Virus genome (UHGV): UHGV-0355038
Strand: one strand, 5' to 3'
Length of the DNA stretch: 12,487 nt
Source: a virus
Shown: positions 1 to 12,487 of the stretch, one piece after another
Layout: every line of letters begins with the position of its first letter
How positions within the stretch are numbered: position 1 is the stretch's first letter
The notes under the pieces: model-generated
Database searches by the model: none
What the model was told of the DNA's origin: nothing
The model's input: the letters and a program-made list of their open reading frames with translations, nothing else
Made by a program: the position numbers and the translations under genes

Positions 1-106
1 CATAGCCAAAGGTGCCTGTGTATTTTTTTGAGTTTCAATTATTGCATTTCTCACCAGCGGTGGTAGTGCATATATCGGATAAGGATTTTCTGGTGCAAGT
101 AAGCAC
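1..106 (-). CDS. small hypothetical protein, N-terminal part only (runs off window start); paralog of the 357..584 ORF
   Basis: Minus-strand translation from the ATG at 106..104 gives MCLLAPENPYPIYALPPLVRNAIIETQKNTQAPLAM..., open to the window edge. A GAGAGG Shine-Dalgarno-like motif lies about 5 nt upstream. It shares the pattern PYP.YA.P...NAIIETQ.N..A.LAM with the 75-aa ORF at 357..584. Not in the ORF track because it is partial. Confidence 0.35.
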
Positions 107-143
107 ATAAAAGCCTCTCTTTTCATTAATGGGTTAGTAAAGT

Positions 144-179
144 AGCAGCAACTCCCGCTATAATAGCGAAATAGCTGCT
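144..179. promoter_or_regulatory. palindromic operator-like site upstream of the first small-gene copy
   Basis: AGCAGC (144..149) and GCTGCT (174..179) flank a central palindrome CGCTATAATAGCG that contains a TATAAT -10-like hexamer. It is the counterpart of the better-preserved site at 620..656. Confidence 0.3.
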
Positions 180-356
180 GTTCAGACCTAATGTTCTGAG
201 AAATACAGAATATCTGTAGATCTGATGTTTAATAAACCGATAAGGTTAATTCAGTTCATACTGTGTTATTTACCACGAAATATCATTCATGTTTCTCATT
301 CTTAACACCTCCTAAAATTATTTCACTAACACCTTCCCCCCGGTCTTTTTCCTTTC

Positions 357-584
357 TCAGGAATCAGCCAGAACCATAGTGTAAATATTAACGGGCCCAC
401 GTAAATTTCCGGGGTTGCACACGTCAATCTGATTCTGACAGGCAATTGACATCGCTGTTAATAATGATGTTGTAGTCATAGCCAGAGATGCTTTTTCATT
501 GTGTTGAGTTTCAATTATTGCATTTCCAGTCATTGATGGTTGCGCATATACTGGATACGGAGTATCCGGTTTGATGTAAGACAT
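357..584 (-). CDS. small hypothetical protein (75 aa), tandem paralog of the partial ORF at 1..106
   Basis: ATG start with an AAGGA Shine-Dalgarno motif about 8 nt upstream (minus-strand sense ...AAAAAAGGAAATATTTATG). The N-terminus MSYIKPDTPYPVYAQPSMTGNAIIETQHNEKASLAM aligns with the copy at 1..106. A palindromic operator-like site lies about 36 bp upstream. Confidence 0.45.
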   Translation of the reverse strand: MSYIKPDTPYPVYAQPSMTGNAIIETQHNEKASLAMTTTSLLTAMSIACQNQIDVCNPGNLRGPVNIYTMVLADS

Positions 585-619
585 AAATATTTCCTTTTTT
601 CGTAATAACTTTCGGTTAT

Positions 620-656
620 AGCAGCTATTTCCGCTACAATAGCAACAATAGCTGCT
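620..656. promoter_or_regulatory. perfect 10-bp inverted repeat operator-like site (AGCAGCTATT / AATAGCTGCT), 17-bp spacer
   Basis: AGCAGCTATT at 620..629 and AATAGCTGCT at 647..656 are exact reverse complements. The spacer TCCGCTACAATAGCAAC holds a TACAAT -10-like hexamer. The site sits between the small ORF start (584) and the AlpA-like gene end (690). Confidence 0.4.
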
Positions 657-689
657 ATACAGACTGGATATACTGAAAATACAGACAGT

Positions 690-917
690 TCATCTGGTCT
701 GTATCCAGCAGAGAAGGTCACTTAACAACCATCCGCAAGATTTCTTTCCGATAGACTTACGTGGTGGAAATGTTCCCTCCCGTTCAAGTTTCCACGCTTG
801 TGTACGAGAAATTGACGTGATCTCATATCGTTCCTTTTCACGTACCAGTCTGTCGCATTCAATCCCATAAGCTTTCAAAATGACCAGACGCTGTTCATCT
901 GTTAATGGAAGCCACAT
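690..917 (-). CDS. AlpA-family (phage Vis/AlpA-like) helix-turn-helix transcriptional regulator
   Basis: The track ORF 690..938 begins with a TTG codon. An internal ATG at 917..915 is preceded by a perfect AGGAGG Shine-Dalgarno motif at 5-nt spacing, so I place the start there (75 aa, MWLPLTDEQ...). The C-terminal segment ITSISRTQAWKLEREGTFPPRKSIGKKSCGWLLSDLLCWIQ matches, from memory, the AlpA pattern (S.STiyR...G.FP..+.+G.+s.gW...ei..Wi). Confidence 0.6.
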   Translation of the reverse strand: MWLPLTDEQRLVILKAYGIECDRLVREKERYEITSISRTQAWKLEREGTFPPRKSIGKKSCGWLLSDLLCWIQTR

Positions 918-1608
918 ACTACCCTCCTGATATATCAATACTTTTTATTTCCGGCATGAGCATGAAATGACTAAGTTTCCCGGATAAACAATGAGTGAAA
1001 GTCACTATCATTCATCCAGCCAACACCTTACAAATAAAATGTAATACTATGATTTTTATAGGTCAAAATACTGAATTGAAATGTTAAAATGGCTTTTAAT
1101 AGAAAAAATAAAGACATATAGAACCAAATAAAAACAAGCCGCGACCAATAAAAACAAAAATTAATATTAAAAATCCATTATGACGATTTTTGTTGACTAA
1201 AATTAGGTTGGGATATATAAATAAATCCATGTGAAATTCAAACAAAGCATGGAGGAGTCGCAGGAAGGTGAAATATTTCCATCTAATTTGTGATAATCAT
1301 CACAAAAATAAGCTACAACAAGCGGAGGAAAAGACAATCTGTTGCTGAACAGACAGAAGCAGGCTACGAATGATCGGAAAATGAAGCAAATACGCTTATA
1401 CAGAAGACGCAGGGGTAACTGACGGAGACAATCACAATCAGGAGAAAATGATCGTAAATAATGTATAAAATCTCAGGATATAAACAAATGTACACAAGCT
1501 ATCCACGTAATCTGCGGCTGGCTCAGGATTAACGTTTCATTTCAGTGGACGACATCGATTCTGTCTGACAGTGGGCCAATATGTGGCAAGCAGAAAACTT
1601 CTGACATC

Positions 1609-3240
1609 ATGGTAACTCGGACAATGCAACAAAAGTATGATCGTGTTTTATCTGGCGAATCCCACCCATTCCCTGGCATATACGAGGCGGTTTCCGAACA
1701 ACTCCTTTTGCTCATCTTTAAGGCTCGTCAGCTATATCAGAATCCAGAATATCGCCCCTGGTTTGAAGAACAGCACAGAGTTCTCTCTGCATTACGTGCT
1801 AATACAGAGCTCTTGAGAATATTTAGAGAACAAAGAAACGCGGAAGAACCAGAGCTTATTATTAAAGAATCTACATTACCCCTACTCACTAATTCTAATC
1901 TTACAGATGCGCTTAATATTATGTGCCATTTATACAATGGTTTTGATGAAGGAAATATCAGTCTGAAAACCTGGGGGGCGATGCAAGAGGTACAGACAAC
2001 ATCAACCTTTATCAGCCCGGGACCGAGAACCTGGAAAACACCTGAACTGGCAAAGTTTGTAGGAGATGATTTATTTAATATTCTGACTGAATGTAAAGCC
2101 TGGAGTTCACCAATTCCAGCAGAAACCCGACAGGGCTATTGCCATCAGGATCTGTCTGTTGCACACTCCTGCACCTCAGAGTTACTGGCACACCTGAATC
2201 AATACCATGAAATTGATGAATCAGCAATACTTGCCAGAGTTATTGGTATGACGGTTAACGGATTCTACAAGAAAAATAATACAGACCTCCCAGAATGGCT
2301 ATCCCCCTTTAAAGAGGAACATAAAATATTCAGAGATTGTCTGGAGCAAAAGACCGAGGATGTAATCAGACTGAAAGAACAACTGTTGAAAACAGGACGT
2401 TCAGAATTCGTGAATAATTTGTGTCGGGTCGCCAACTGGTATGAAATTAAGTCAATATACGATGAATATGTCCGTCTTTATGCCAATGAAATCATTGGTT
2501 GGTTCAACAAAACCATGGAATATTTTAAACCAACAGATTTTATCCGATATACATGGAAATTCGCAACAGTTACTCCAGATAAAGAGACAGAAACCAAGCA
2601 TACAACTGCATGGGAAAAGGATTATTGCCAGATAACTATACAACGTGATGAACTTCTGAGATTGATTCACACGAATACCCTTCAGGATGCAGTAATTTAT
2701 CTTTGCCATTGCCTGCAGAAGAAATACAAGAAATCATCCCAAAATGAGATAGAGTTTCCAGGAATAAAACCTCCGGCATCAGAGAGTGAAATTAATATAA
2801 CAGATAATTTTGAATTTTATTCTCTCCTGGAGCTCAGTAAAGATAATGAGAGGCGGCTGGAAACATTTCAAAAATGGTATGAAAAAAATAAAGTTTTGTT
2901 AGAAAGTCATAAACAAAAACGAACAGAGAAGATTGACGTTGCCGTACGACTTGTAGGGCTGAAAGCCTATGATCTGCATGAAGGGATTCCGGATAGTCCA
3001 AAACGAAAAGTTAAAGATGGCATAAATGAAGACATCAAAGCCGATACCAGTTTACGCCTGCCAAAGACAAATATAAGTGATACGTCGCTAAACCGTTATC
3101 GCCGCACTGTTAAGGAGATTATCAATAACGAAATCGACGCATTCCTGTTGGAACAGAAGAAAAAAAATAAAAGATTTCCCTACAGTGAAGATAGAGATGT
3201 GATTCGACCTTTATGGGGAAAATGCCTGACCGGGCAGTAG
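1609..3240 (+). CDS. hypothetical protein, 543 aa, no family recognised
   Basis: Long uninterrupted ORF; antisense ORFs inside it are short. A terminator-like hairpin follows the stop. No Walker A, HExxH or other motif I can name with confidence. The start is ambiguous between ATG 1609 and ATG 1624 (no strong Shine-Dalgarno for either). Confidence 0.65.
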   Translation: MVTRTMQQKYDRVLSGESHPFPGIYEAVSEQLLLLIFKARQLYQNPEYRPWFEEQHRVLSALRANTELLRIFREQRNAEEPELIIKESTLPLLTNSNLTDALNIMCHLYNGFDEGNISLKTWGAMQEVQTTSTFISPGPRTWKTPELAKFVGDDLFNILTECKAWSSPIPAETRQGYCHQDLSVAHSCTSELLAHLNQYHEIDESAILARVIGMTVNGFYKKNNTDLPEWLSPFKEEHKIFRDCLEQKTEDVIRLKEQLLKTGRSEFVNNLCRVANWYEIKSIYDEYVRLYANEIIGWFNKTMEYFKPTDFIRYTWKFATVTPDKETETKHTTAWEKDYCQITIQRDELLRLIHTNTLQDAVIYLCHCLQKKYKKSSQNEIEFPGIKPPASESEINITDNFEFYSLLELSKDNERRLETFQKWYEKNKVLLESHKQKRTEKIDVAVRLVGLKAYDLHEGIPDSPKRKVKDGINEDIKADTSLRLPKTNISDTSLNRYRRTVKEIINNEIDAFLLEQKKKNKRFPYSEDRDVIRPLWGKCLTGQ

Positions 3241-3248
3241 ATCACTGA

Positions 3249-3280
3249 GGGGATAACAGCCCGGTTATCCCCTGTTTGTT
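3249..3280 (+). terminator. intrinsic terminator-like hairpin between convergent genes
   Basis: GGGGATAAC (3249..3257), loop AGCCCG, GTTATCCCC (3264..3272): a perfect 9-bp stem. It is followed by TGTTTGTT and starts 9 nt after the stop of the 1609..3240 ORF. Confidence 0.5.
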
Positions 3281-3326
3281 CTGCTTCAGGTTGCCAGAGC
3301 TCCAGGAACACGAGGCAATCGGCAAA

Positions 3327-3923
3327 TTATGCGGCTTTTCCATTAACAGATTCGGCCACAAGAACAACACCGTGTTTGTTTCGATCAGGATGTTCACTCC
3401 AGATTTCTGATTCAGGAATGCTTTCCCCATCATAGCAGATCCGATCACCATCAAACGGATAATACCGTGCGGAATCTGTAGCTAAGATAAACACCTTAAG
3501 ATTCGTTGAACGACGCGCTATATGCTGCCAGAGGGCTTTACCTCCTTCATATTGCTCGTTATCACTTAATAGTATAACGCCTGCTTTTGTGGCTATTGTT
3601 TCATAAACAAACGTAGCAAGGCTAACATCACGTACAGCACCATCGACAACAATCCCTTCAATCTGAGCAACGTCCTGTTCTTCCCAGAATTTCCGGACAA
3701 ACACCCCTTCAAGTCGGGGACGACGCTGAAGCTCCAGAGTGGCAACAACCTTATGGCGAATATCACCATCAATAACAGAAGGTGCAGCTTCGATTACCGC
3801 AGCGAACGGAGTCTTTGGATCCCAGATGATCTGGTAAAGCACACCCTGAATAGTTACTCCATCCAGTATCGAAAAACGACGAGCTACAGTAGCAGGGGAG
3901 TAAGACATTGGAATGACAGCCAT
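3327..3923 (-). CDS. hypothetical protein, 198 aa, no family recognised
   Basis: ATG-initiated ORF on the minus strand, convergent with 1609..3240. The composition looks like a real globular protein (e.g. ...IATKAGVILLSDNEQYEGGKALWQHIARRS...). I could not assign a fold by eye. Confidence 0.6.
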   Translation of the reverse strand: MAVIPMSYSPATVARRFSILDGVTIQGVLYQIIWDPKTPFAAVIEAAPSVIDGDIRHKVVATLELQRRPRLEGVFVRKFWEEQDVAQIEGIVVDGAVRDVSLATFVYETIATKAGVILLSDNEQYEGGKALWQHIARRSTNLKVFILATDSARYYPFDGDRICYDGESIPESEIWSEHPDRNKHGVVLVAESVNGKAA

Positions 3924-4233
3924 TTTATGGCCTAAAATTTGAAAACATCAGTATCAATACTGACCTCATCAGTCTGAGCATATATTGATAAAGTTTTTAT
4001 GTTTACACTCAATAAATACCTTACCAAACAACTAATAGCGATGTCTACATTGCCATTCGACATGCTTACAATTTTTGTCAACAAGAAAGTGAATTTATAT
4101 CAACGGTAAGAAGTAAACACGAGGACACCAAAACCAAATGTACACACTTTTGTGCTTTGTGTCCCCTGTGTGTACCCAAATGACAAACTGCAAGAAAATC
4201 TAGGCACACACTTATCTAACTTATTGATTTAAA

Positions 4234-4279
4234 TGGTGCCGATAATAGGAGTCGAACCTACGACCTTCGCATTACGAAT
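4234..4279 (-). repeat. 46-nt 3' fragment of a tRNA gene (most likely tRNA-Thr CGU, thrW-like): integration-site (att) repeat
   Basis: Minus-strand sense reads ATTCGTAATGCGAAGGTCGTAGGTTCGACTCCTATTATCGGCACCA: anticodon loop with CGT, variable loop, T-arm GTAGG-TTCGACT-CCTAT, acceptor 3' strand TATCGGC, discriminator A and CCA. The sequence 5' of it (GGATTCTTATA) does not continue a D-arm or acceptor 5' strand, so this is a partial copy and not a gene. Confidence 0.65.
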
Positions 4280-5026
4280 TATAAGAATCCGCTTCTAATT
4301 CAAAGTATTACCCCATCAACACTGTGCTCACACGTCCCACCACATCAAAACATGTAAAGCCTTGCAAGCCATTGTGAGGCCTTATGTGTCTCAGTTTTGT
4401 CCCACCTTGTATTATGACTTGCATAGCCAATGAAGATAAACGTGACGACAAACAGCGCAGCAGTCTTCTTTTCTTTCACACTTTCCCCAATCAGCATACA
4501 TACTTTCTACCATAACTGTAGTGAATGTCTGTTATGAGCGAGCAAAAGAGATTCAATTACCGGGGAATTACTCCGACATAAGCTCTCCCAGAAACACCGG
4601 AACAGCGATTCGCATATTCTCTTCTATACTTTCAGTCTGACCGGCTGGAGATTTCATAGCAAGAAAATGGATGAGCCAAGACCTATGCGGGAAAGAGGCT
4701 GAGGAAATAATTGCCGATAGCACTGTGCCCGACGAAAAGTTAATCTGGCACGCAATGACGCGCGTCCTTGGGGCATCAGGAATCAGAGAGCCAACTTAAC
4801 AACCCATTATATATTATTTAACCGGACTGTTACATGTACAAAGTTCAATGATTAGTGATTCTGTGACGCCACATACAACCTAAGCCCCTGATATAAAACC
4901 AGTCTATGCAACACCTAAAAATCATATATGATAGGGTGATAAGTCAACGCGCAGTATAAAAATTAAGCTAAAAAATGCTTTCAGCATAGTGAATCTATTT
5001 CACACTACATAATTAAGGATGAAAAA

Positions 5027-5872
5027 ATGACTGCACCAGTAATTAGTTTTATCAATATGAAAGGTGGGGTTGGTAAAACAACTTTATGCGTTGGGATTGC
5101 TGAGTTTTTAGCCAACCATATGGGGCGCAAGGTTCTAGTTATCGATATTGATCCTCAATTTAATGCCACTCAGTCCTTAATGGGGCATTATGATCGAGTA
5201 GAAGAATATATGACTGCCCTTCGCCCTAATAATCAAACCATTCGAAAGATTTTTGAGCTTCCAAATTCATTAATGGAAGATGAAAAGAAAGTGACACCAG
5301 AACAGGTCATTACTAAAGTTTCAGACAATCTTGATATTATCTTAGGTGATATAAACATTATCTTTGATACTAACCAAGAGGGTATTAGAATAAAAATGTT
5401 GCGTAAATTCATCACCGAAAATGACTTAAAAGAAAGTTACGACTATATCTTTATCGATAGCCCCCCAACAATCTCATTATTTACAGATACCGCACTCCTT
5501 GCTTCTGATTATTATCTTACTCCGGTTAAAATTGATCACTACTCGGTGCTTGGAGCAAGCAGTTTAAATAGCGTTATAAGAAATATGCGCACACATCATG
5601 AGAAAGAAATCAAGCAAGTCGGTTACATTTATACAAACACTGATGCTGAAATGACCAATAAAACAAGGGAAATTAAAGAACAATTCGAAAACCATACTCA
5701 ATTTACAAATTTTTATTTCTTTGAAAATCAATTAACCTACGTGCGTGATTTAATGGTAGGTTATCAAGGAAATATTCCTTCTTGTTATTCAAAGTCACGC
5801 CAAGATATAGAAAAGATCTGTAACGAATTTATTAACAGAGTGGCTCACTTGGAAGGTAACACAAATGAATAA
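5027..5872 (+). CDS. ParA/MinD/Soj-family P-loop ATPase (deviant Walker A)
   Basis: AAGGA Shine-Dalgarno motif 7 nt upstream of the ATG. N-terminal INMKGGVGKTT (deviant Walker A KGGxxGK[ST]), VIDIDPQ (typical ParA DxDPQ motif) and a hydrophobic Walker B-like IFIDSPP. 281 aa, no N-terminal HTH extension. Confidence 0.75.
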   Translation: MTAPVISFINMKGGVGKTTLCVGIAEFLANHMGRKVLVIDIDPQFNATQSLMGHYDRVEEYMTALRPNNQTIRKIFELPNSLMEDEKKVTPEQVITKVSDNLDIILGDINIIFDTNQEGIRIKMLRKFITENDLKESYDYIFIDSPPTISLFTDTALLASDYYLTPVKIDHYSVLGASSLNSVIRNMRTHHEKEIKQVGYIYTNTDAEMTNKTREIKEQFENHTQFTNFYFFENQLTYVRDLMVGYQGNIPSCYSKSRQDIEKICNEFINRVAHLEGNTNE

Positions 5873-6263
5873 ACAATTAATTAAAGCGCTCAATAAAGCT
5901 AATAATATGCCCATGACCAAAGAAAACTTCTTAGGCTTGGTAATTATGTTGATTCTTTCAAAAGAGGTTTTTAGATCAAATTTTGATGTTAGTAAATTTA
6001 TTAACAAAACCTTCAAAATATCTTTTTTGAATTATGCTGTACGGTCAAGAACTTTGATGTGCGCTAAAATTTGCAGACATATTAATGAATTAAGTGAGAA
6101 TGACATAAAGATGGCTTATACGCATTTCTTAAACAACATTAACACATTAGACATTATTTTTAATGATGCAAATAAAACAAGCCAAAAACCCACATCTAAA
6201 AGCAAGCATGCTATAAGGAATTTAAATATTTGGATTAATGCAAATAAAAAGGAAGAAGAATAA
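5865..6263 (+). CDS. hypothetical protein, 132 aa, Lys/Asn-rich, no family recognised
   Basis: ATG overlaps the upstream stop by 8 nt (ATGAATAA). A GGAAGG Shine-Dalgarno motif lies about 8 nt upstream. Very AT-rich codon usage shared with its neighbours. Confidence 0.6.
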   Translation: MNKQLIKALNKANNMPMTKENFLGLVIMLILSKEVFRSNFDVSKFINKTFKISFLNYAVRSRTLMCAKICRHINELSENDIKMAYTHFLNNINTLDIIFNDANKTSQKPTSKSKHAIRNLNIWINANKKEEE

Positions 6264-6928
6264 TGCTCACGCAGGATCCCTTCAACATTGGAAGAGATGT
6301 AAATTATTTTAGAGCGGAGGTGCAAAAGCACCTCAGAACCACTGATGAAATAAACAAATCAGTATCAATATTTAGGCAAATAAGTCTTTGTAATACAATT
6401 TTAAGTCACAATCCTAATCTAAATCACTCTTCTTATATAAAAGGTTTTATATATGATACCTTAAACTCCTTAATTGCCATTATAAAAAAAAGAGAACGGT
6501 ATCTCCAACTGAACTTCCGCTCAATGGTGGAGCATGTGGCCAGAATAAGCCTCAATAAGAACTACAATGGTGGGGATTTTGACCAAACTGTACGTCGTAG
6601 AGACTTTGACTTCTTAAAAGCCCAACAAGTCGATGAAGGCTGGTCTTATTTACATAATGTCTATATCAACGCCTGTTATTATGTTCACTCCTCCCCCCAA
6701 GCGAACCTAAATGTTACATCAACATTTATATCACTTATGGAGGGAGATTGTAATTCAACACAGCATAAAATGGTGAAAAAACTTCATGAGGTAGTATCGG
6801 CGCTGATGAGAATCATTATAAAGTATTATCATCAGCATATCTCAAACATTTTCTTTAGAAACAAAAAGGATTTAGAGAAAATAATGGGAAAAAGCCTTTA
6901 TTCATATTATACCAGCTTAGACAATTAA
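6263..6928 (+). CDS. hypothetical protein, 221 aa, no family recognised (speculative HEPN-like R-x4-H motifs)
   Basis: Start overlaps the upstream stop by 1 nt (TAATG). An AAGGAAG Shine-Dalgarno motif is upstream. It contains R-x4-6-H strings (RSMVEH, RIIIKYYH) that could be coincidental. Confidence 0.6.
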   Translation: MLTQDPFNIGRDVNYFRAEVQKHLRTTDEINKSVSIFRQISLCNTILSHNPNLNHSSYIKGFIYDTLNSLIAIIKKRERYLQLNFRSMVEHVARISLNKNYNGGDFDQTVRRRDFDFLKAQQVDEGWSYLHNVYINACYYVHSSPQANLNVTSTFISLMEGDCNSTQHKMVKKLHEVVSALMRIIIKYYHQHISNIFFRNKKDLEKIMGKSLYSYYTSLDN

Positions 6929-6965
6929 TTCTCTCATATTCATTGCGTAGAGCATAAATATCTAT

Positions 6966-7461
6966 CTAACCACCTAAAATGCCAGAAAATCTAGTTGTAT
7001 ACCGGTGCGAAAATATCTCGCGTTTCATCTGCCACTGCTGCTGAATGCCCTGCCCAGCGAAACAGAGTGTTTCCTTCCCGTCTTTTGCATTGAGGTGCTC
7101 CAGCACGCTCATTAACTTTTCGCTCCCAGGACCCAGCGCGTTATCGTCGAATAGGTTAGGGCATGCTCTGACTGAAGAAGTCCCCCAGCATTACCCCGGC
7201 TTTCTGATATCGGTGTCCGTCTTTCCATATTGCATCCAGACTCCCCGTTGCTACTGCAATGATATCCCGACTGTCCTGTGTCGGGATGAGCAGCTTCACC
7301 GACGCGCTGTTACAGTAGTACGACTCGTTCAACGCAAAGGGTATCGTGTAAAACCGATGATGACACTGCCGGCAATCAGCACTGACGTCAGCAAACGTGA
7401 GAAAGAACAGATAAGCCGAACGATTTAGGAAATGTTTGAAGAGACTGATATGTGGATGGTT
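6966..7461 (-). pseudogene. umuC: umuC-like Y-family translesion polymerase gene, 3' remnant, frameshifted and 5'-truncated
   Basis: Minus-strand translation gives ...FYTIPFALNESYYCNSASVKLLIPTQDSRDIIAVATGSLDAIWKDGHRYQKAGVMLGDFFSQ. After a frameshift near 7160..7175 it gives NLFDDNALGPGSEKLMSVLEHLNAKDGKETLCFAGQGIQQQWQMKREIFSHRYTTRFSGILGG-stop. This matches my recollection of the UmuC C-terminus (...HRYQKAGVMLGDFFSQ...NLFDDNA...GQGIQQQWQMKR...PRYTTR...). No intact ORF remains, and the upstream extent (possibly to about 7790) is uncertain. Confidence 0.6.
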
Positions 7462-7858
7462 TCAGTTTAAACGCCTTGAACCGTCATATTACCTAAGTAC
7501 AATCCGCTGTGACTGGCAATCATTCAATACTTGCACTATCAAAAGTGCATCAGCCAACCGCAGCACGTCTTGCATACGACCTGTCTGCGGTTTCAATCAC
7601 CTCTCACCACCAGTCCCATCAATAATAATTAAACAGCGCCTAAACAAAATAAATAACAACAAGTCAACAACCTCGACAGGATGCCGATGGGATGATGAAG
7701 AGATAAGAAAGAATAACTAGTAAAGCCCTAAAACGTCAGCGTTCAGACGCGTTTTTTACTTAACCGGTAACAAATACGTTGTATCATAGCAACATAAAAT
7801 GATTGTTCTAAATCAGATTAACTCCTCACTTTTGTACAATGTCGCTTACAGGTATACC

Positions 7859-9748
7859 ATGAAATCCGAGACGCTAACTGTCCAACAACTTTTTCAAGAC
7901 CGCCGACAATACTGTGTTCCATTCTATCAACGTGCCTATGTATGGACTCAGCGAAACCAATGGTCAGCTCTACTGGAGGATATCCTAGAGAAAGCACAAT
8001 CCCGGCTCTCGGGTACAAAACCAACTCCCCATTTCCTTGGTGCAGTGGTACTGGAACCTCAACCAAAAAAAGGATTATTCGGTGTAGATTCCATACATAT
8101 TATTGATGGTCAGCAACGATTGACCACTCTTCAATATGTTCTGGCATCCATCCGATTAGCATTACGTGCGACAGATCTTTCCAACTTAGAGCCTCTCATT
8201 TCGTCTTGCCTGAAAAACTCAAACGAAGACACAATGCGAAATAAAGAAGTAGAGCGCTTCAAACTGTGGCCAACTTTTCGGGATCAAACTCATTTTATTC
8301 AAAGTTTTAATGTTGAAAATATTGACGATATCCGGAATGTATTCTCTGATAGTTTCACGCAGCATGGTACGTTGCGTAAGCATTTTAATCACCCGCCATC
8401 ACTAGAAGCATTATGTTTTTTTACTGAAGCCTTTATAAAGTGGATTAAAATAGAAAATCACTCACCACGAGAAAATGCTGTAGCATTAATTGAGGCTGTC
8501 TTGACGGATCTGAAACTAGTAAGCATATTTCTCGAGGCTGAAGATGACGCTCAAATAATTTTTGAAACATTAAATGGCAGAGGTGCGGAACTTCATGCCA
8601 CAGATCTTATTCGCAATTATATTTTTATGTGCGCTGAACATGAAAATATTAATGCTGTTGAATTATATGAGAATGAGTGGAAGATCTTTGAAGATACGTA
8701 CTGGTCAGAAAGACAACGTCGTGGTCGTATTAATAAACCACGCATGGAGTGGCTAGTGCATGCAACATTGCAATCAGAAAGGCAACGTGAAATCGATCTG
8801 TCTCGTCTTTACAATGAGTATCGTGATTATGTAAGTAAGGACTTGCCTTCACAACGAGCAGATCTGCAAGTAAAGCGCCTCAAACAATATGCATCACAAT
8901 ATAAAGAATTGGTTGGTGGTTTTGGCACAACCCCCATCTCACACTTTGGACATCGCATCGCAGCCTATGATGTGACGACACTTTATCCGCTTGCTTTGTT
9001 CATTTCGATAGCTAACATCGCCGATGATGAGAAAGCAGCCATGTATAATGATCTTGTCTCCTACGTAGTACGAAGAGCCGTATGTGGCCTGACGCCAAAG
9101 AATTACAACAATGTATTTATGAATGTATTGCGGCACTTGTCTAAAACAGAAATTTCCAGTGTTGAGTTACGTAATATCCTCAATAGCTTAAATGGCGAAG
9201 CCTCACGTTGGCCTGGGGACTCAGAATTTCTCAACGCTTGCATCAATGCTCCACTTTATCCTGGCAGGCTCGACGCACCGAAAATGCGCTCAATGTTAAC
9301 GGAACTTGAAAGAGAACTTTGTCGCCAAGTGAAGACAGAGAAGCCTGATGTTCCAAATCTTTCTAACCTCGATATCGATCATCTTATGCCTCAAAGTTGG
9401 TATTCCTGTTGGCCTCTCGAAAATGGTCATATAGTGACAAATTCAGATGCTACGGTATTGAACCAAATTGTTCTGTCTGGAACCGATCTTACCCCAGAAC
9501 AGCTACTGGTAAGGAAACGGCAACAAGCGATAGCTACGTTGGGAAATCTAACTTTGCTTAACCTTAGCGTAAACCGTTCTGTTCAGAATGCTGTATTTCT
9601 GAAAAAACGTGATGCTCTCATCGTCCACACCAATCTACGACTGAACATTCCACTTATAGTTAAGGATAAATGGGATGAGGATGAAATCCTGGAGCGGGGT
9701 AAAAAGTTGGGGGAAATTGCATTGAAAGTATGGCCAAAACACGATTAA
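7859..9748 (+). CDS. GmrSD-family putative type IV (modification-dependent) restriction endonuclease: N-terminal DUF262 (ParB-like NTPase) plus C-terminal DUF1524 (His-Me finger nuclease)
   Basis: N-terminal YCVPFYQRAYVW and IIDGQQRLTTLQ (the DGQQR signature of DUF262). C-terminal LSNLDIDHLMPQSW (DUF1524-like D-H..P.S nuclease motif). The track ORF starts at ATG 7799; I prefer the in-frame ATG at 7859 (AGG 9 nt upstream; the conserved block then starts near residue 18), but 7799 is possible. Confidence 0.75.
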   Translation: MKSETLTVQQLFQDRRQYCVPFYQRAYVWTQRNQWSALLEDILEKAQSRLSGTKPTPHFLGAVVLEPQPKKGLFGVDSIHIIDGQQRLTTLQYVLASIRLALRATDLSNLEPLISSCLKNSNEDTMRNKEVERFKLWPTFRDQTHFIQSFNVENIDDIRNVFSDSFTQHGTLRKHFNHPPSLEALCFFTEAFIKWIKIENHSPRENAVALIEAVLTDLKLVSIFLEAEDDAQIIFETLNGRGAELHATDLIRNYIFMCAEHENINAVELYENEWKIFEDTYWSERQRRGRINKPRMEWLVHATLQSERQREIDLSRLYNEYRDYVSKDLPSQRADLQVKRLKQYASQYKELVGGFGTTPISHFGHRIAAYDVTTLYPLALFISIANIADDEKAAMYNDLVSYVVRRAVCGLTPKNYNNVFMNVLRHLSKTEISSVELRNILNSLNGEASRWPGDSEFLNACINAPLYPGRLDAPKMRSMLTELERELCRQVKTEKPDVPNLSNLDIDHLMPQSWYSCWPLENGHIVTNSDATVLNQIVLSGTDLTPEQLLVRKRQQAIATLGNLTLLNLSVNRSVQNAVFLKKRDALIVHTNLRLNIPLIVKDKWDEDEILERGKKLGEIALKVWPKHD

Positions 9749-9770
9749 TGCAATTAATAAAATGATTATA

Positions 9771-9794
9771 GCGGCCTTACATTAGTAAGGCCGC
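9771..9794. terminator. perfect 10-bp stem hairpin downstream of the GmrSD-like gene
   Basis: GCGGCCTTAC-ATTA-GTAAGGCCGC. The T-run is weak on the plus strand; on the minus strand it is followed by TATAATCATTTTATT. It may terminate either or both convergent transcripts. Confidence 0.4.
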
Positions 9795-9839
9795 TACTCA
9801 CTATTAAATCCTTTAATTTGCAACAAGAACAGCAGTGTC

Positions 9840-9971
9840 AGCCCTAGGTTTCGGACTTTGTACCGCTTATCTTGTCTTCAAAATCAGCTCGCATCCTGCA
9901 CAGTTCAGCGCATTACGTTGTAGATCTGTGTTCTGGTCATTTGTTGATACGCGAACATAGCCAATAAGCAT
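9840..9971 (-). pseudogene. pin: Gin/Pin/Cin/Hin-family serine DNA invertase, N-terminal stub only
   Basis: Minus-strand ATG at 9971..9969 translates MLIGYVRVSTNDQNTDLQRNALNCAGCELI, the near-invariant invertase N-terminus containing the catalytic-serine region (VRVST). A 1-nt loss in a T-run then shifts the frame (LKTR-stop); the +1 frame still reads FEDKISGTKSE before a TAG. Homology ends around 9830 where the GmrSD cassette begins. Not in the ORF track (too short). Confidence 0.7.
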
Positions 9972-10000
9972 GATAGCTCCTCCTGACAAAAACAGGAACG

Positions 10001-10474
10001 ATGCCATTTGCGCGCTATTTCTGCATTTTCATAAACGTTCAATTGGGAGAAGCGGCAAAACGGGATGTCGGAACCGGTAATAATCAACTCCCGGACATGT
10101 CCGCATTTGGTATGTCGCGAAACGGACAAACTGCCTGGGATATTCTCCCAAATGGTATGATTCGACAGGTTGGTACTGTGACACTGACGCCTGTTGGTAA
10201 TTTCAACGCAATTACTCTTGGTGGAGTGCTGTACTACACCCATTACTACAGGGTTAATTTCCCCAGACAATTCCCAAATGCACAAATAGCAACGCTGGCA
10301 ACACTAGCGAGTTACAGCTTTTCGACCCAGTCATCAATGGCTGGGAAATCACTGGCAACGCATCGCGATACTGATTCTGGCACTGACGTATCAAGAACGC
10401 GATTCACTGTGTCGTATACGACACCCAATCTCGGCGAAATTCCGACTTTGCATTTTGAAGCAATAGGATACTAA
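10001..10474 (+). CDS. alternative tail-fibre C-terminal (receptor-binding tip) cassette, S'-like, inverted relative to the expressed fibre gene
   Basis: 157-aa ORF; the frame is open from 9977. Its beginning ...INVQLGEAAKRDVGTGNN... parallels ...NALQLGTAATRDVGADNA... inside the minus-strand fibre gene, and both end in A(I/L)GY. The cassette has no obvious promoter or Shine-Dalgarno motif of its own. Confidence 0.55.
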   Translation: MPFARYFCIFINVQLGEAAKRDVGTGNNQLPDMSAFGMSRNGQTAWDILPNGMIRQVGTVTLTPVGNFNAITLGGVLYYTHYYRVNFPRQFPNAQIATLATLASYSFSTQSSMAGKSLATHRDTDSGTDVSRTRFTVSYTTPNLGEIPTLHFEAIGY

Positions 10475-10476
10475 AT

Positions 10477-10710
10477 ATGGAGAATATGTATTTCAGCCCA
10501 ACGACCGTTGGTTTTTATGTTTCTGAACAAGAGCGACCTGATGATGCGGTTGAAGTCTCGCCAGAGGTGGAGGCATTTTTGAGGGAGTGTGTTATCTGGG
10601 GAGCGGATACATTTAACGTAGAGCGAGATGCAGCAACGGTGACATATCCAACAGAACTGCTTGAATATGTCACCACCTACAACGCCCCCGTTAAATATCC
10701 TGCGGATTGA
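10477..10710 (+). CDS. small ORF downstream of the S' cassette, U'-like (alternative tail fibre assembly chaperone), possibly truncated
   Basis: ATG 2 nt after the S' stop (TAA-at-ATG), the same spacing as the fibre/Tfa junction on the other strand (TAA-ga-ATG). It is 77 aa, and its 3' end overlaps the 3' end of the minus-strand Tfa gene by 20 bp. The assignment is by position; I see no family motif. Confidence 0.4.
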   Translation: MENMYFSPTTVGFYVSEQERPDDAVEVSPEVEAFLRECVIWGADTFNVERDAATVTYPTELLEYVTTYNAPVKYPAD

Positions 10711-11101
10711 CAGGCCATACGGGTTTTGCTGTATCAACGCGCATCAGCAAGACCCGGTATTTTTTCCATTCAGATAACGCGGCGGTTTCTTCTGCCGTCG
10801 CGATTTCCGCATCAAAAGCATCCTGTCTCCAGGCTATTTCCTTATCAGCCATAGAACGCAATACCGTTCTTTTCTGTTCAGCCTGAATAATCTGTTGTTC
10901 AGCGGAGAGTGGCGGGATATCAATCCACGCAGGATTACCATTTTTATCAGCCCCCAGCGTTTTGCCTTGTGGCGCTACGCCTGTGTAAATTGCCATTGTT
11001 TCATCATCAACATCAACGCCATTTTCAGGCCATGAACCGGCGCTGATATATACCTCTTTTAGTGCTTTCGGATAGAAAGAGCCTTTATAAAATTTATTCA
11101 T
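10691..11101 (-). CDS. tfa: tail fibre assembly protein (lambda Tfa / Mu U family)
   Basis: C-terminal ...[27 protein letters not shown]... matches, from memory, the conserved lambda Tfa C-terminus (...[25 protein letters not shown]..WP). I place the start at the ATG at 11101, which is 2 nt after the fibre stop with GGGG upstream; the track ORF from 11131 would overlap the fibre gene. Confidence 0.75.
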   Translation of the reverse strand: [136 protein letters not shown]

Positions 11102-11103
11102 TC

Positions 11104-12487
11104 TTAATACCCCAGCGCGATAAAACAACAATCTTCGGTGCCCTCTCCGGATGGCGACCAGTTCTGAATACTGATATGCGTTCTGCTGGCAATACGCACA
11201 TTCATCGCGGCATTGTAGCCAGATGTTCCACGGTTTCCGGTCGCAAATAAGCCTGCATAGGGAAAAGCAAATGGTAAGGCATATCCAGCATCAGCTCCCT
11301 TTTGTGTTGCCACCATTCCCCACTGCAACATAAGTTTCACCGGGTTTCCTGTCGTCGCAATGCATGGAATGTAGATGTAGCCATTCCCTGACATCATTGA
11401 CCTGAAGCTGTCTAAACCCAGTAACTTCGAGGCATTATCTGCTCCAACATCTCGTGTTGCGGCGGTCCCTAACTGGAGCGCATTTCGGAAGGCTGATACA
11501 TCAGAAATATCAGCTCCATTAGCCGATTTCTGCATAGCTCCGGAGGCTTTATTTATCGTTTCGCCCAAACCAAGGTATGCGAGAAGACCAGCTACATCCT
11601 TTCCACTCAAATTAGTCAGCGTATTGTCCAGCGGTTGTTTGCCCGCCAGTGCGCTCTGTACTTCGCTTTTGCTGTAGGCATCCAGATCTTTAGGCGTAAG
11701 CGTAATATCCTTCGTGCCGTCAAACGGAACGCCGTTGATATTCCGTGCAGTCTGTAGTTTTGTGGCAGTTGCAGCATTACCAGTGGTGTTCTGATTACCC
11801 GTAGTGTTTACACCTGGAAGGTTAATATTTGCAGAACCGTCGAAAACAACTCCACCGATAGATCTTGCCGTCTGCAATTTCGTGGCTGTACTTGCATTAC
11901 CATTCAATGAACCAGTTAATCCACCTGTAACAGACAACGGACCTGAAACTGTTCCTCCGGTTGTTGGCAGTGCTCCAATATCTAACGGCGTCGGTTTCTG
12001 ATGTGTGCTATACATCGTATAAACAACACCATAGGTAACGCTGGAAGGCTTACTCGCTGAATATGTTGGCGAGGTATAAACAGAAACTGACGCATTTGCA
12101 GTACAATCCCAATGGATATTTACACTCGTCGCATAATTGCCAATCTCAACGTAAATATCATATGTATCGCCGGATGTGTTGATCCAGGCGAAATTCGTTA
12201 ATCCGACGGCTGTACGCTTCCACAAAGCCCCGGTAATTCCTTTGGGGTTTCCATTGCCTGCTCGTAGAACCAGTTCTGAAATGCCTGCCTGATGTGGGGA
12301 ACCGACGTTGTAACCAGCGCCACCAATCAATGCGATGTAAACGATGGAACTCGCCTGTGGCATGGTTACCGTTGCTAATTTGAACCAACCAGCACCACCG
12401 CTGAATGACATTGTTGTTGAGTTAAGCGTACCAATATCTTTCGGCGTCAGTGTTATATCCGCTGAAAGCGCCTTACCATTCACCTTA
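11104..12487 (-). CDS. stf: side tail fibre protein, C-terminal about 460 aa (5' end beyond the window)
   Basis: Repeated fibre motifs (DITLTPKD twice; ATKLQTARSIGGVVFDGSANI / ATKLQTARNINGVPFDGTKDI), Gly/Ser/Thr-rich composition, and an immediately downstream Tfa. The track methionine at 12483 is probably internal. Confidence 0.8.
   Translation of the reverse strand, partial: KVNGKALSADITLTPKDIGTLNSTTMSFSGGAGWFKLATVTMPQASSIVYIALIGGAGYNVGSPHQAGISELVLRAGNGNPKGITGALWKRTAVGLTNFAWINTSGDTYDIYVEIGNYATSVNIHWDCTANASVSVYTSPTYSASKPSSVTYGVVYTMYSTHQKPTPLDIGALPTTGGTVSGPLSVTGGLTGSLNGNASTATKLQTARSIGGVVFDGSANINLPGVNTTGNQNTTGNAATATKLQTARNINGVPFDGTKDITLTPKDLDAYSKSEVQSALAGKQPLDNTLTNLSGKDVAGLLAYLGLGETINKASGAMQKSANGADISDVSAFRNALQLGTAATRDVGADNASKLLGLDSFRSMMSGNGYIYIPCIATTGNPVKLMLQWGMVATQKGADAGYALPFAFPYAGLFATGNRGTSGYNAAMNVRIASRTHISIQNWSPSGEGTEDCCFIALGY

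What the first reader, a model, noticed from the sequence alone, without database searches (positions are those of the whole stretch)
6929..9830. Compositional mosaic: alternating AT-rich cargo blocks and host-like remnants
By eye, 5027..6928 is very AT-rich and 7799..9748 is intermediate, whereas the umuC remnant (about 6966..7500) and the tail-fibre region (about 10000..12487) look host-like. The boundaries coincide with gene truncations (umuC 5' end, invertase 3' end). This supports at least two independent cargo insertions.
Basis: seen in the sequence. Interest (0 to 1): 0.35.

Follow-up and report, generated by a model that had tools for sequence, protein, structure and literature searches.

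The report
Prophage arm patched with two defence cassettes
The uneven base composition is real: it marks two separately acquired, already known anti-phage gene cassettes (a RemAIN-like tRNA-nuclease operon and a GmrSD restriction enzyme) lying among decayed SOS-type genes at the end of an E. coli prophage, which is ordinary prophage mosaicism.

Summary
GC is 0.33 (5027-6928), 0.51 (umuC remnant), 0.41 (7429-9748) and 0.47 (tail-fibre end). Change-points fall at 7002 (strong), about 7393 and about 9830 (both modest). There is no step at 7750.

The window is an E. coli chromosome. Everything right of a 63-nt thrW att repeat (4217-4279) is the tail-fibre-distal arm of a lambdoid prophage.

The AT-rich block is a ParA-like/132-aa/221-aa operon. 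It is homologous (65/33/49% aa) to a Salmonella prophage trio that matches the published description of Gifsy-1 RemAIN (ATPase, immunity protein, HEPN anticodon nuclease). It is 28-35% GC in five genomic contexts across four genera.

In Enterobacter and Klebsiella prophages the operon sits between intact SRAP and umuC genes, at the same convergent junction. It therefore did not truncate umuC. The umuC 5' end is a deletion joint to a dinI fragment.

The intermediate block is a 2.25-kb GmrSD cassette (96% aa to the characterised UTI89 enzyme). It replaces about 420 nt of the pin invertase gene.

The two cassettes occur without each other in other genomes, so two independent acquisitions are supported. 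The truncation argument is only half right, and the "host-like" pieces are phage genes, not host genes. Known systems, known phenomenon: low novelty.

The parts
4217..4279 (.). Prophage att repeat: a copy of the 3' part of tRNA-Thr (thrW) plus flank. It is the left limit of the prophage arm.
   Evidence: The 63 nt are repeated at both ends of the thrW prophage in L002 (8001-8063 and 20106-20168, overlapping tRNA-Thr). In 337 genomes window 1-4279 runs into a genuine tRNA-Thr. ARAGORN finds no complete tRNA in the window.
4280..4541 (.). Widespread att-proximal prophage arm segment.
   Evidence: Matches in about 3,600 of 5,426 E. coli genomes. Homology breaks at 4541 in LAU-OXA, ECONIH1 and ERL04-3476.
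4659..4799 (+). 3' remnant of an SOS-response-associated peptidase (SRAP) gene.
   Evidence: RefSeq annotates it in the matching stretch of L002 and L009. Homology to the intact 225-aa SRAP gene of the Enterobacter prophage starts at 4668.
5027..5872 (+). remA-like gene: ParA-family ATPase (MKGGVGKTT Walker A), GC 0.34.
   Evidence: Pfam AAA_31 7.9e-38; phrog_164. 65% aa to the Salmonella immunity-region homologue. dN/dS 0.03 against Enterobacter.
5865..6263 (+). remI-like gene: 132-aa middle gene at the position of the RemAIN immunity gene, GC 0.27.
   Evidence: phrog_6264. 33% aa to the Salmonella middle gene. dN/dS 0.18. The role is inferred from position and from the RemAIN description in PMC13043305.
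6263..6928 (+). remN-like gene: 221-aa all-alpha protein with R86-x4-H91, GC 0.35.
   Evidence: 49% aa over the full length to the Salmonella third gene. R86 and H91 are invariant in 27 homologues. AF2 model pLDDT 88. dN/dS 0.10.
6966..7341 (-). umuC 3' remnant (DUF4113 part, about 125 codons, one frameshift), GC 0.51.
   Evidence: Translations. RefSeq annotation. Colinear with a full-length prophage umuC up to 7341. 71% nt to chromosomal umuC. 77% aa to phage CobraSix UmuC.
7342..7470 (+). dinI 3' remnant, 5'-truncated and joined directly to the umuC remnant. In-frame TAG at 7426-7428.
   Evidence: RefSeq annotation 'DinI family, missing N-terminus'; sequence and translation.
7513..7597 (.). 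Conserved double-hairpin element that lies immediately downstream of intact pin genes in other prophages. Probably a bidirectional terminator. Recombination breakpoints cluster in it.
   Evidence: 80-89% nt to the sequence abutting the pin stop codon in ECONIH1 and WCHEC025943. Homology with other haplotypes starts or stops at 7515, 7518 and 7563. Folding z-scores -3.3 and -3.8.
7598..9848 (+). GmrSD cassette (2.25 kb, GC 0.41). Contains the type IV restriction enzyme gene 7859-9748 with upstream region and a downstream 13-bp-stem hairpin at 9768-9797.
   Evidence: Pfam GmrSD_N 7.8e-34 and GmrSD_C 5.1e-20. PADLOC mREase_IV 629/629, 1436.7 bits. 96% aa to UTI89_C2960. DGQQR 83-87 and D507/H508/N522 present. 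Limits set by comparison with loci that have intact pin. Hairpin.
9849..9971 (-). pin (serine invertase) 5' remnant, about 41 codons with a 1-nt deletion.
   Evidence: Intact pinE genes align only from 9849 (or 9838) onwards. RefSeq annotation.
9972..10710 (+). Alternative tail-fibre C-terminal segment (gp53-like, 10001-10474) and a tail-fibre-assembly fragment (10477-10710), laid out like the silent half of a pin-type invertible segment.
   Evidence: Pfam Gp53-like_C; phrog_188 and tail-fibre phrogs; annotation.
10691..12487 (-). Tail-fibre assembly gene (10691-11101) and the C-terminal part of the lambdoid side tail-fibre gene (11104 to beyond 12487), GC 0.47.
   Evidence: Annotation of L001 with lom, gpJ and tape-measure genes following; Pfam and PHROG hits.

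Best explanation
Window 4217-12487 is the tail-fibre-to-att accessory arm of a lambdoid prophage integrated at thrW in E. coli. Its composition is patchy because it is a recombinational mosaic of modules with different histories.

1. The AT-rich block (5027-6928) is an intact operon under purifying selection, homologous to RemAIN. By homology it works as published for Gifsy-1: a ParA-like ATPase (RemA) and a small immunity protein (RemI) control a HEPN anticodon nuclease (RemN). RemN cleaves tRNAs when a competing phage or prophage enters lytic growth, which aborts that growth.

2. This operon is an old passenger between the phage's SRAP and umuDC genes. Both neighbours later lost their 5' parts by deletion in the E. 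coli lineage.

3. The umuC stump was joined by illegitimate recombination to a dinI stump. That stump belongs to a second, widespread module: dinI, then a terminator-like element, then GmrSD, then a truncated pin, then the invertible tail-fibre segment.

4. In that second module a 2.25-kb cassette replaced about 420 nt of the pin invertase gene. The cassette encodes a single-chain GmrSD type IV restriction enzyme, which cuts glucosyl-hydroxymethylcytosine (glc-5hmC) and 5hmC DNA of T-even phages.

What is shown and what is inferred:
- Shown: module limits, distribution, composition and selection.
- Shown: the biochemical functions rest on homology to characterised proteins.
- Inferred: the order of events.
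For: Location and boundaries:
- The window is 100% identical to E. coli Ec-2977, with lom, gpJ and tail genes to the right.
- The att repeat is defined.

RemAIN-like trio:
- Window 4668-7341 is colinear at 85.4% nt with an Enterobacter prophage carrying intact SRAP (225 aa), the trio, UmuC (422 aa), UmuD, a resolvase and tail genes. Klebsiella has the same layout.
- The trio is 0.27-0.35 GC in E. coli, Enterobacter, Klebsiella, Yersinia and Salmonella, against flanks of 0.45-0.62.
- dN/dS is 0.03, 0.18 and 0.10 for the three genes.
- In Salmonella the trio (840-bp and 663-bp genes) lies directly after the CI-type repressor, next to cII, O and P. This matches the description of Gifsy-1 STM14_3218-3220 (PMC9879122).
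- That region is named remAIN, with RemA ATPase, RemI immunity and RemN HEPN anticodon nuclease (PMC13043305; also PMC12626290, PMC12409363).
- The window proteins are 65, 33 and 49% identical to the Salmonella ones. R86-x4-H91 is invariant in 27 homologues.

GmrSD cassette:
- Published activity is in PMC4437046.
- Loci with intact pinE match the window only at 7513-7603 and from 9849. They have 420 nt of pinE where the window has 2,245 nt.

Separate distributions in 5,426 genomes:
- Trio in 51 genomes.
- GmrSD/pin junction in 288 genomes.
- Each block occurs without the other.

Variable slot: the position next to pin carries other cargo elsewhere, namely McrBC-like, GIY-YIG and FRG genes.
Against: - The Salmonella locus was identified with RemAIN by gene order and gene lengths in papers, not by sequence identity to STM14_3218-3220. 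The primary RemAIN paper could not be read.
- Foldseek did not recover a HEPN fold for the RemN-like model. The best HEPN hit was 5yep_C at E = 2.
- H91 is replaced by N in 77% of 88 more distant family representatives.
- PADLOC 2023 gives no real hit for the trio.
- No target-site duplications or terminal repeats flank either cassette, so the insertion mechanisms are unknown.
- The order of events is inferred from a handful of loci, not from a phylogeny.
- The 7393 and 9830 GC steps are no larger than steps between ordinary chromosomal genes.
Confidence: 0.82

Rival explanations
1. A host-like backbone (umuC, invertase, tail fibre) was hit by two AT-rich cargo insertions, and these insertions caused the truncations of umuC and of the invertase.
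For: GC steps at about 7000, 7393 and 9830 lie near gene ends or stumps. The invertase stump does abut the GmrSD cassette.
Against: The trio lies beside the intact 3' end of umuC, and the same junction is present next to full-length umuC in Enterobacter and Klebsiella. The umuC 5' break is fused to a dinI stump, 250 nt away from the GmrSD cassette. That joint also exists in a genome without GmrSD. The remnants are phage-borne paralogues inside the att sites, not host genes.
Confidence: 0.12
2. The whole arm (trio, remnants and GmrSD) arrived as one pre-assembled block, so the composition records nothing about separate events in E. coli prophages.
For: 43 genomes carry 6929-7800 contiguously. 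The haplotype is nearly identical (at least 99%) among them.
Against: Each module occurs alone in other prophages, at other integration sites and in other genera. Breakpoints fall at 4541, 7514-7563 and about 10100.
Confidence: 0.04
3. The GC differences are ordinary gene-to-gene heterogeneity and carry no information on origin.
For: An ordinary chromosomal stretch gives change-points of similar statistical strength (LLR 9.4-53). The 9830 step is only 6 GC points, with a flat likelihood profile.
Against: The trio at 0.33 GC lies 3.3 sd below 300-nt windows of backbone DNA. It keeps that composition in five contexts across four genera. The comparative data independently place module limits near the steps.
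Confidence: 0.02

Closest known systems
RemAIN of Salmonella Typhimurium 14028s prophage Gifsy-1 (STM14_3218-3220; Sargen and Helaine 2024, as cited in PMC13043305, PMC12626290 and PMC12409363; earlier genetics in PMC9879122)
   Same: Three overlapping genes in the same order: ParA-like ATPase, small protein, about 220-aa protein. All three are homologous over their full length to the Salmonella immunity-region trio (65, 33 and 49% aa). The operon is prophage-borne and patchily distributed. The R-x4-H motif is present.
   Different: Location differs: here it lies between SRAP and umuC in the tail-fibre/att arm, not downstream of the repressor in the immunity region. The RemI and RemN homologues are strongly diverged, so trigger, tRNA targets and immunity specificity may differ. 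No functional data exist for the E. coli version.
GmrSD type IV restriction enzymes of E. coli UTI89 (UTI89_C2960), STEC_94C (Eco94GmrSD) and CT596 (PMC4437046; review PMC12707154)
   Same: 629-aa single chain with DUF262 and DUF1524 domains. 96% aa to the UTI89 enzyme. DGQQR and D507-H508-N522 are conserved. It lies on a prophage next to tail-fibre genes, as reported for Eco94GmrSD, UTI89 and APECO1_3911.
   Different: This is a slightly different allele, so the phage range and IPI* sensitivity are unknown. The paper places the gene downstream of the tail-fibre genes. I did not find in the passages I read that the cassette replaces most of the pin invertase gene.
e14-type prophage end (pin invertase followed by a modification-dependent restriction gene, mcrA in K-12; from my own knowledge) and P2/P4 defence hotspots (PMC9122126)
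   Same: A fixed slot beside conserved phage genes carries interchangeable defence cargo: McrBC-like, GIY-YIG, FRG or GmrSD.
   Different: Here the cargo has overwritten the invertase itself. The arm also holds a second, unrelated cassette.
Temperate siphophages with a tail fibre, umuD, umuC, cargo, SRAP, int arm (Escherichia phage PHB10, Salmonella phage Oslo)
   Same: Same gene order and orientation of umuC and SRAP relative to the tail fibres and att. The UmuC remnant is 71-77% aa identical to phage UmuC proteins.
   Different: In the window umuD and the 5' parts of umuC and SRAP are deleted. PHB10 carries small ORFs and cold-shock genes, and Oslo nothing, where the RemAIN-like trio sits.

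Membership tests
RemAIN defence system | Three-gene operon in the order ATPase (RemA), small immunity protein (RemI), nuclease (RemN) | tested here: met
   ORFs 5027-5872, 5865-6263 and 6263-6928 lie on one strand with overlapping starts and stops. The same architecture is seen in all homologous loci.
RemAIN defence system | Sequence homology of all three proteins to Gifsy-1 STM14_3218-3220 | tested here: inconclusive
   65, 33 and 49% aa identity to a Salmonella prophage trio. That trio's position (after the repressor, beside cII, O and P) and gene lengths (840 and 663 bp) match the published description (PMC9879122). The STM14 sequences themselves were not available for comparison.
RemAIN defence system | RemN is a HEPN nuclease (R-x4-6-H active-site motif, HEPN fold) | tested here: inconclusive
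   R86-SMVE-H91 is invariant in 27 homologues, including the Salmonella one. However, Foldseek gave no significant HEPN match, and H91 is N in 77% of 88 distant representatives.
RemAIN defence system | tRNA anticodon cleavage and protection against phages or co-resident prophages | not testable with these tools
   Needs tRNA sequencing and plaque or induction assays.
GmrSD type IV restriction endonuclease | N-terminal DUF262 (GmrS, DGQQR NTPase motif) fused to C-terminal DUF1524 (GmrD, His-Me/HNH nuclease) | tested here: met
   Pfam GmrSD_N 7.8e-34 and GmrSD_C 5.1e-20, both above the curated cut-offs. DGQQR is at residues 83-87.
GmrSD type IV restriction endonuclease | Catalytic D507-H508-N522 shown to be essential in Eco94GmrSD (PMC4437046) | tested here: met
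   D507, H508 and N522 are present at the same numbering. 96% aa identity to UTI89_C2960 without gaps.
GmrSD type IV restriction endonuclease | NTP-stimulated cleavage of glc-5hmC/5hmC DNA and restriction of T-even phages | not testable with these tools
   Inferred from near-identity to characterised enzymes only.
Pin/Hin/Gin serine invertase | Complete resolvase catalytic domain plus C-terminal HTH | tested here: not met
   Only the first 41 or so codons remain (9849-9971), with a 1-nt deletion. The other 420 nt or so are replaced. It is a pseudogene.
UmuC (Pol V catalytic subunit) | Complete IMS polymerase domain plus IMS_C/DUF4113 | tested here: not met
   Only about 125 C-terminal codons remain, with a frameshift. 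The full-length relative is 422 aa. It is a pseudogene of a phage-borne paralogue.

The most novel reading that the evidence does not exclude
SRAP, RemAIN-like and UmuDC, found intact and adjacent in Enterobacter and Klebsiella prophages, may be a functional supermodule rather than a chance neighbourhood. In that reading the anticodon nuclease is wired into the SOS/DNA-damage response of the prophage arm, and E. coli kept only the nuclease operon because it alone benefits the host as a domesticated prophage-competition element with new trigger or tRNA specificity.
Probability: 0.12. Interest if true: 0.45.

Novelty: new member of a known kind. Interest (0 to 1): 0.25.

Why it matters
It shows that GC patchiness at a prophage end can point correctly to separately acquired defence cargo. 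It also shows that composition alone misassigns which junctions are insertion scars; relatives with intact neighbours are needed for that.

Practically, it flags:
- an uncharacterised E. coli/Enterobacter/Klebsiella branch of the recently described RemAIN anticodon-nuclease system, kept under purifying selection while its neighbours decayed;
- the fact that the widespread prophage GmrSD cassette sits inside, and inactivates, the pin invertase. Inference: with pin gone, the adjacent tail-fibre segment can no longer be inverted by it.

None of this changes current concepts of prophage morons and defence hotspots.

Tried and rejected
- Rfam scan of the whole window: no family.
- tRNA scan: none, because the att carries only a partial tRNA copy.
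- Direct and inverted repeats around both cassettes: no target-site duplications or terminal repeats, so no sign of transposition.
- Second copy of the pin-proximal crossover-like sequence: none within 3 mismatches. Inverted repeats in 9800-12487 were uninformative.
- tblastn of the 221-aa protein against 50,697 phage records: no match.
- Genome-contig scan with the single protein: no confirmed relative.
- Pfam, NCBIfam and PADLOC for the 132-aa and 221-aa proteins: nothing significant.
- PDB sequence profile search: nothing.
- Foldseek against PDB and BFVD: no hit better than E = 0.2.
- My first idea, that the trio is a partition module, was dropped. There is no ParB, the contexts are lysogen-expressed, and the literature link is to RemAIN.
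- The idea that the umuC remnant is a piece of the host umuC was rejected (71% nt identity, and it lies inside the att sites).
- The primary RemAIN paper (PMC11840918) is not held.
Full report

| Segment | GC |
|---|---|
| 5027-6928 | 0.331 |
| umuC remnant 6966-7347 | 0.513 |
| 7429-7798 | 0.405 |
| 7799-9748 | 0.413 |
| 10000-12487 | 0.470 |

A likelihood-ratio change-point scan with shuffling finds:
- 5227 and 7002, LLR 16.8 and 29.2, none of 300 shuffles as high;
- within 7002-12487, a step at 7393, p = 0.022;
- within 7393-12487, a step at 9830, p = 0.0005, on a flat plateau from 9800 to 10100.

GC3 separates the blocks more sharply: trio 0.30-0.37, GmrSD 0.35, umuC stump 0.57-0.67, tail-fibre C-terminal part 0.42, gpJ of the same prophage 0.65.

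Two corrections apply.
- The middle step is at about 7393, not about 7750. The 7429-7798 spacer already has the composition of the GmrSD block.
- The tail-fibre end is intermediate, not host-like.

One caveat applies. The same test on ordinary chromosomal DNA (ecpD-paoD) also returns 'significant' steps, LLR 9.4-53. By composition alone, only the 18-point step at about 7000 stands out.

**2. Where are we?**

The window is 100% identical to E. coli Ec-2977. To the right follow lom, gpJ and the rest of a lambdoid tail module.

In most genomes the sequence from 4217 rightwards abuts the yagP'/paoD side of the thrW (CP4-6) site. Window 4217-4279 is a 63-nt repeat of the 3' end of tRNA-Thr, which also closes the other end of the prophage. 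So 4217-12487 is the tail-fibre-to-att accessory arm of a thrW prophage.

Window 1-4216 belongs to a different integrative island. In 337 genomes that island abuts the genuine tRNA-Thr.

**3. The AT-rich block**

It is a three-gene operon:
- a ParA-family ATPase (Pfam AAA_31 7.9e-38);
- a 132-aa protein;
- a 221-aa protein, with no Pfam, NCBIfam or PADLOC family but PHROG families 164, 6264 and 7540.

The 221-aa family is small. It has 31 clusters, and all named members are Enterobacterales. About 100 representatives appear in a profile search of 1.84 billion proteins.

The contexts are decisive.

*Enterobacter and Klebsiella.* In these prophages the trio lies between an intact SRAP gene and intact umuC-umuD, followed by a resolvase and tail genes. 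Window 4668-7341 is colinear with the Enterobacter locus at 85.4% nt. The trio/umuC junction is therefore an ordinary convergent gene end, 34-37 nt wide, and not an insertion scar.

*Elsewhere.* In Yersinia the trio sits beside a giant LPD/MuF protein. In E. coli RM13322 it sits between two integrases. In Salmonella it sits immediately downstream of the CI-type repressor, next to cII, O and P.

In all five contexts it is 0.27-0.35 GC against flanks of 0.45-0.62. It is under purifying selection, with dN/dS of 0.03, 0.18 and 0.10.

**4. What the trio is**

The Salmonella arrangement and gene lengths (840 and 663 bp) match the Gifsy-1 region STM14_3218-3220. That region is required for activation of the RtcR RNA-repair regulon during the SOS response, and its deletion raises phage yield 2-4-fold (PMC9879122).

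The region has since been named remAIN. RemA is an ATPase, RemI an immunity protein and RemN a HEPN anticodon nuclease. The system defends against phages and blocks co-resident prophages (PMC13043305, citing Sargen and Helaine 2024; also PMC12626290, PMC12409363, PMC13492144).

The window proteins are 65, 33 and 49% identical to the Salmonella ones. An R86-x4-H91 motif is invariant in 27 homologues.

Caveats:
- I could not compare directly with the STM14 sequences.
- Foldseek found no significant HEPN match for a confident model, pLDDT 88.
- H91 is N in most distant representatives.

**5. The 'host-like' remnants**

*umuC stump (6966-7341, minus strand).* It keeps the C-terminal 125 or so codons with one frameshift. 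It is 71% nt identical to chromosomal umuC, against 85% to the Enterobacter prophage gene and 71-77% aa to phage UmuC proteins.

Phages PHB10 and Oslo show the same arm layout: tail fibre, umuD, umuC, optional cargo, SRAP (PHB10 only), int.

*The umuC/dinI joint.* Homology to umuC stops at 7341. From 7342 a 5'-truncated dinI reads the other way, as far as 7470, with an in-frame TAG. Both genes lack their 5' parts at one point, which is the signature of a deletion or an illegitimate joint.

This joint is present in JBEHAAB-19-0176, which has no GmrSD. It is therefore unrelated to the GmrSD insertion.

*SRAP stump.* It begins at 4659-4668.

**6. The intermediate block**

The 7859-9748 gene is a single-chain GmrSD:
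- Pfam GmrSD_N and GmrSD_C;
- PADLOC mREase_IV over 629/629 positions;
- 96% aa to the characterised UTI89 enzyme;
- DGQQR and D507/H508/N522 intact (PMC4437046).

Loci with intact pinE (ECONIH1, ERL04-3476) match the window only at 7513-7603 and from 9849. The first match is the element abutting the pin stop codon. Between the two matches those loci have 420 nt of pinE where the window has 2,245 nt. So a 2.25-kb cassette replaced most of pin. This is the one truncation that really coincides with a cargo boundary and with a GC step (9830).

The same cassette with the pin stump occurs in e14/Mu-like prophages at ssrA (UTI89), thrW (LAU-OXA) and proL (VE-V10-F). Its junction is present in 288 of 5,426 genomes.

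Beside intact pin genes the slot holds other cargo: McrBC-like, GIY-YIG and FRG genes.

**7. Independence of the two cargo blocks**

- The trio is in 51 genomes, and the umuC/dinI joint in 49.
- Each block occurs without the other.
- Breakpoints between haplotypes cluster at 4541 and inside the 85-nt double-hairpin element at 7513-7597, at 7515, 7518 and 7563. That element folds well, z = -3.3 and -3.8. It probably serves as a shared terminator and homology patch.
- No repeats flank either cassette.

**8. Verdict**

The compositional mosaic is real and it does reflect at least two independent cargo acquisitions.
- the remnants are decayed phage accessory genes, not host DNA;
- the strongest GC step is a normal gene junction;
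- the umuC truncation is a deletion joint unrelated to either cargo block.

Both cargo systems (RemAIN-like, GmrSD) and the phenomenon (prophage morons and defence hotspots; PMC9122126) are known. The finding is ordinary. Its modest added value is an uncharacterised E. coli branch of RemAIN and the mapping of the GmrSD cassette into pin.

Noticed in passing
window 1-4216: A different integrative island: YfjI-family and DUF3987 remnants, an AlpA-like HTH gene at 690-917(-), a 543-aa ORF at 1609-3240(+) with no family in Pfam, PHROGs, NCBIfam or PADLOC, and a 198-aa ORF at 3327-3923(-) that matches phrog_7522. In 337 genomes it abuts a genuine tRNA-Thr. Here it sits in tandem with the prophage at the att repeat, and only one of 5,426 complete genomes carries the whole window contiguously.
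   Followed up: partly
window 7513-7597: An 85-nt element with two stable hairpins (folding z = -3.3 and -3.8). It lies just downstream of pin in many prophages and also, at 84% identity, in the chromosomal ecpE-ykgJ spacer. Recombination breakpoints between arm haplotypes fall inside it. No Rfam family matches.
   Followed up: partly
window 9849-12487: Inference: with pin reduced to about 41 codons, the gp53-like alternative tail-fibre C-terminus (10001-10474) and the truncated tfa (10477-10710) are probably locked in the silent orientation. No second crossover-site copy was found within 3 mismatches.
   Followed up: partly
window 7799-7859: The longest ORF for GmrSD starts at 7799 (649 aa), but the 629-aa PADLOC profile and the RefSeq annotation fit the ATG at 7859. 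ORFs 7045-7428(+) and 7436-7720(+) overlap the umuC and dinI stumps and are probably spurious.
   Followed up: yes
L014 (Enterobacter) 5910-11120; L022-L024 (Klebsiella) 4886-10985: Intact SRAP, RemAIN-like trio, UmuC, UmuD and resolvase form a conserved prophage arm in two other genera. Whether the SOS-type genes and the nuclease operon are functionally linked is unknown.
   Followed up: no
family of the 221-aa protein (P0032-P0134): Across 88 representatives, R86, E90, Y134 and H142 are 100% conserved and S87 98%. The histidine of the R-x4-H motif is mostly asparagine, so distant members may use a different catalytic arrangement from the one described for RemN.
   Followed up: partly
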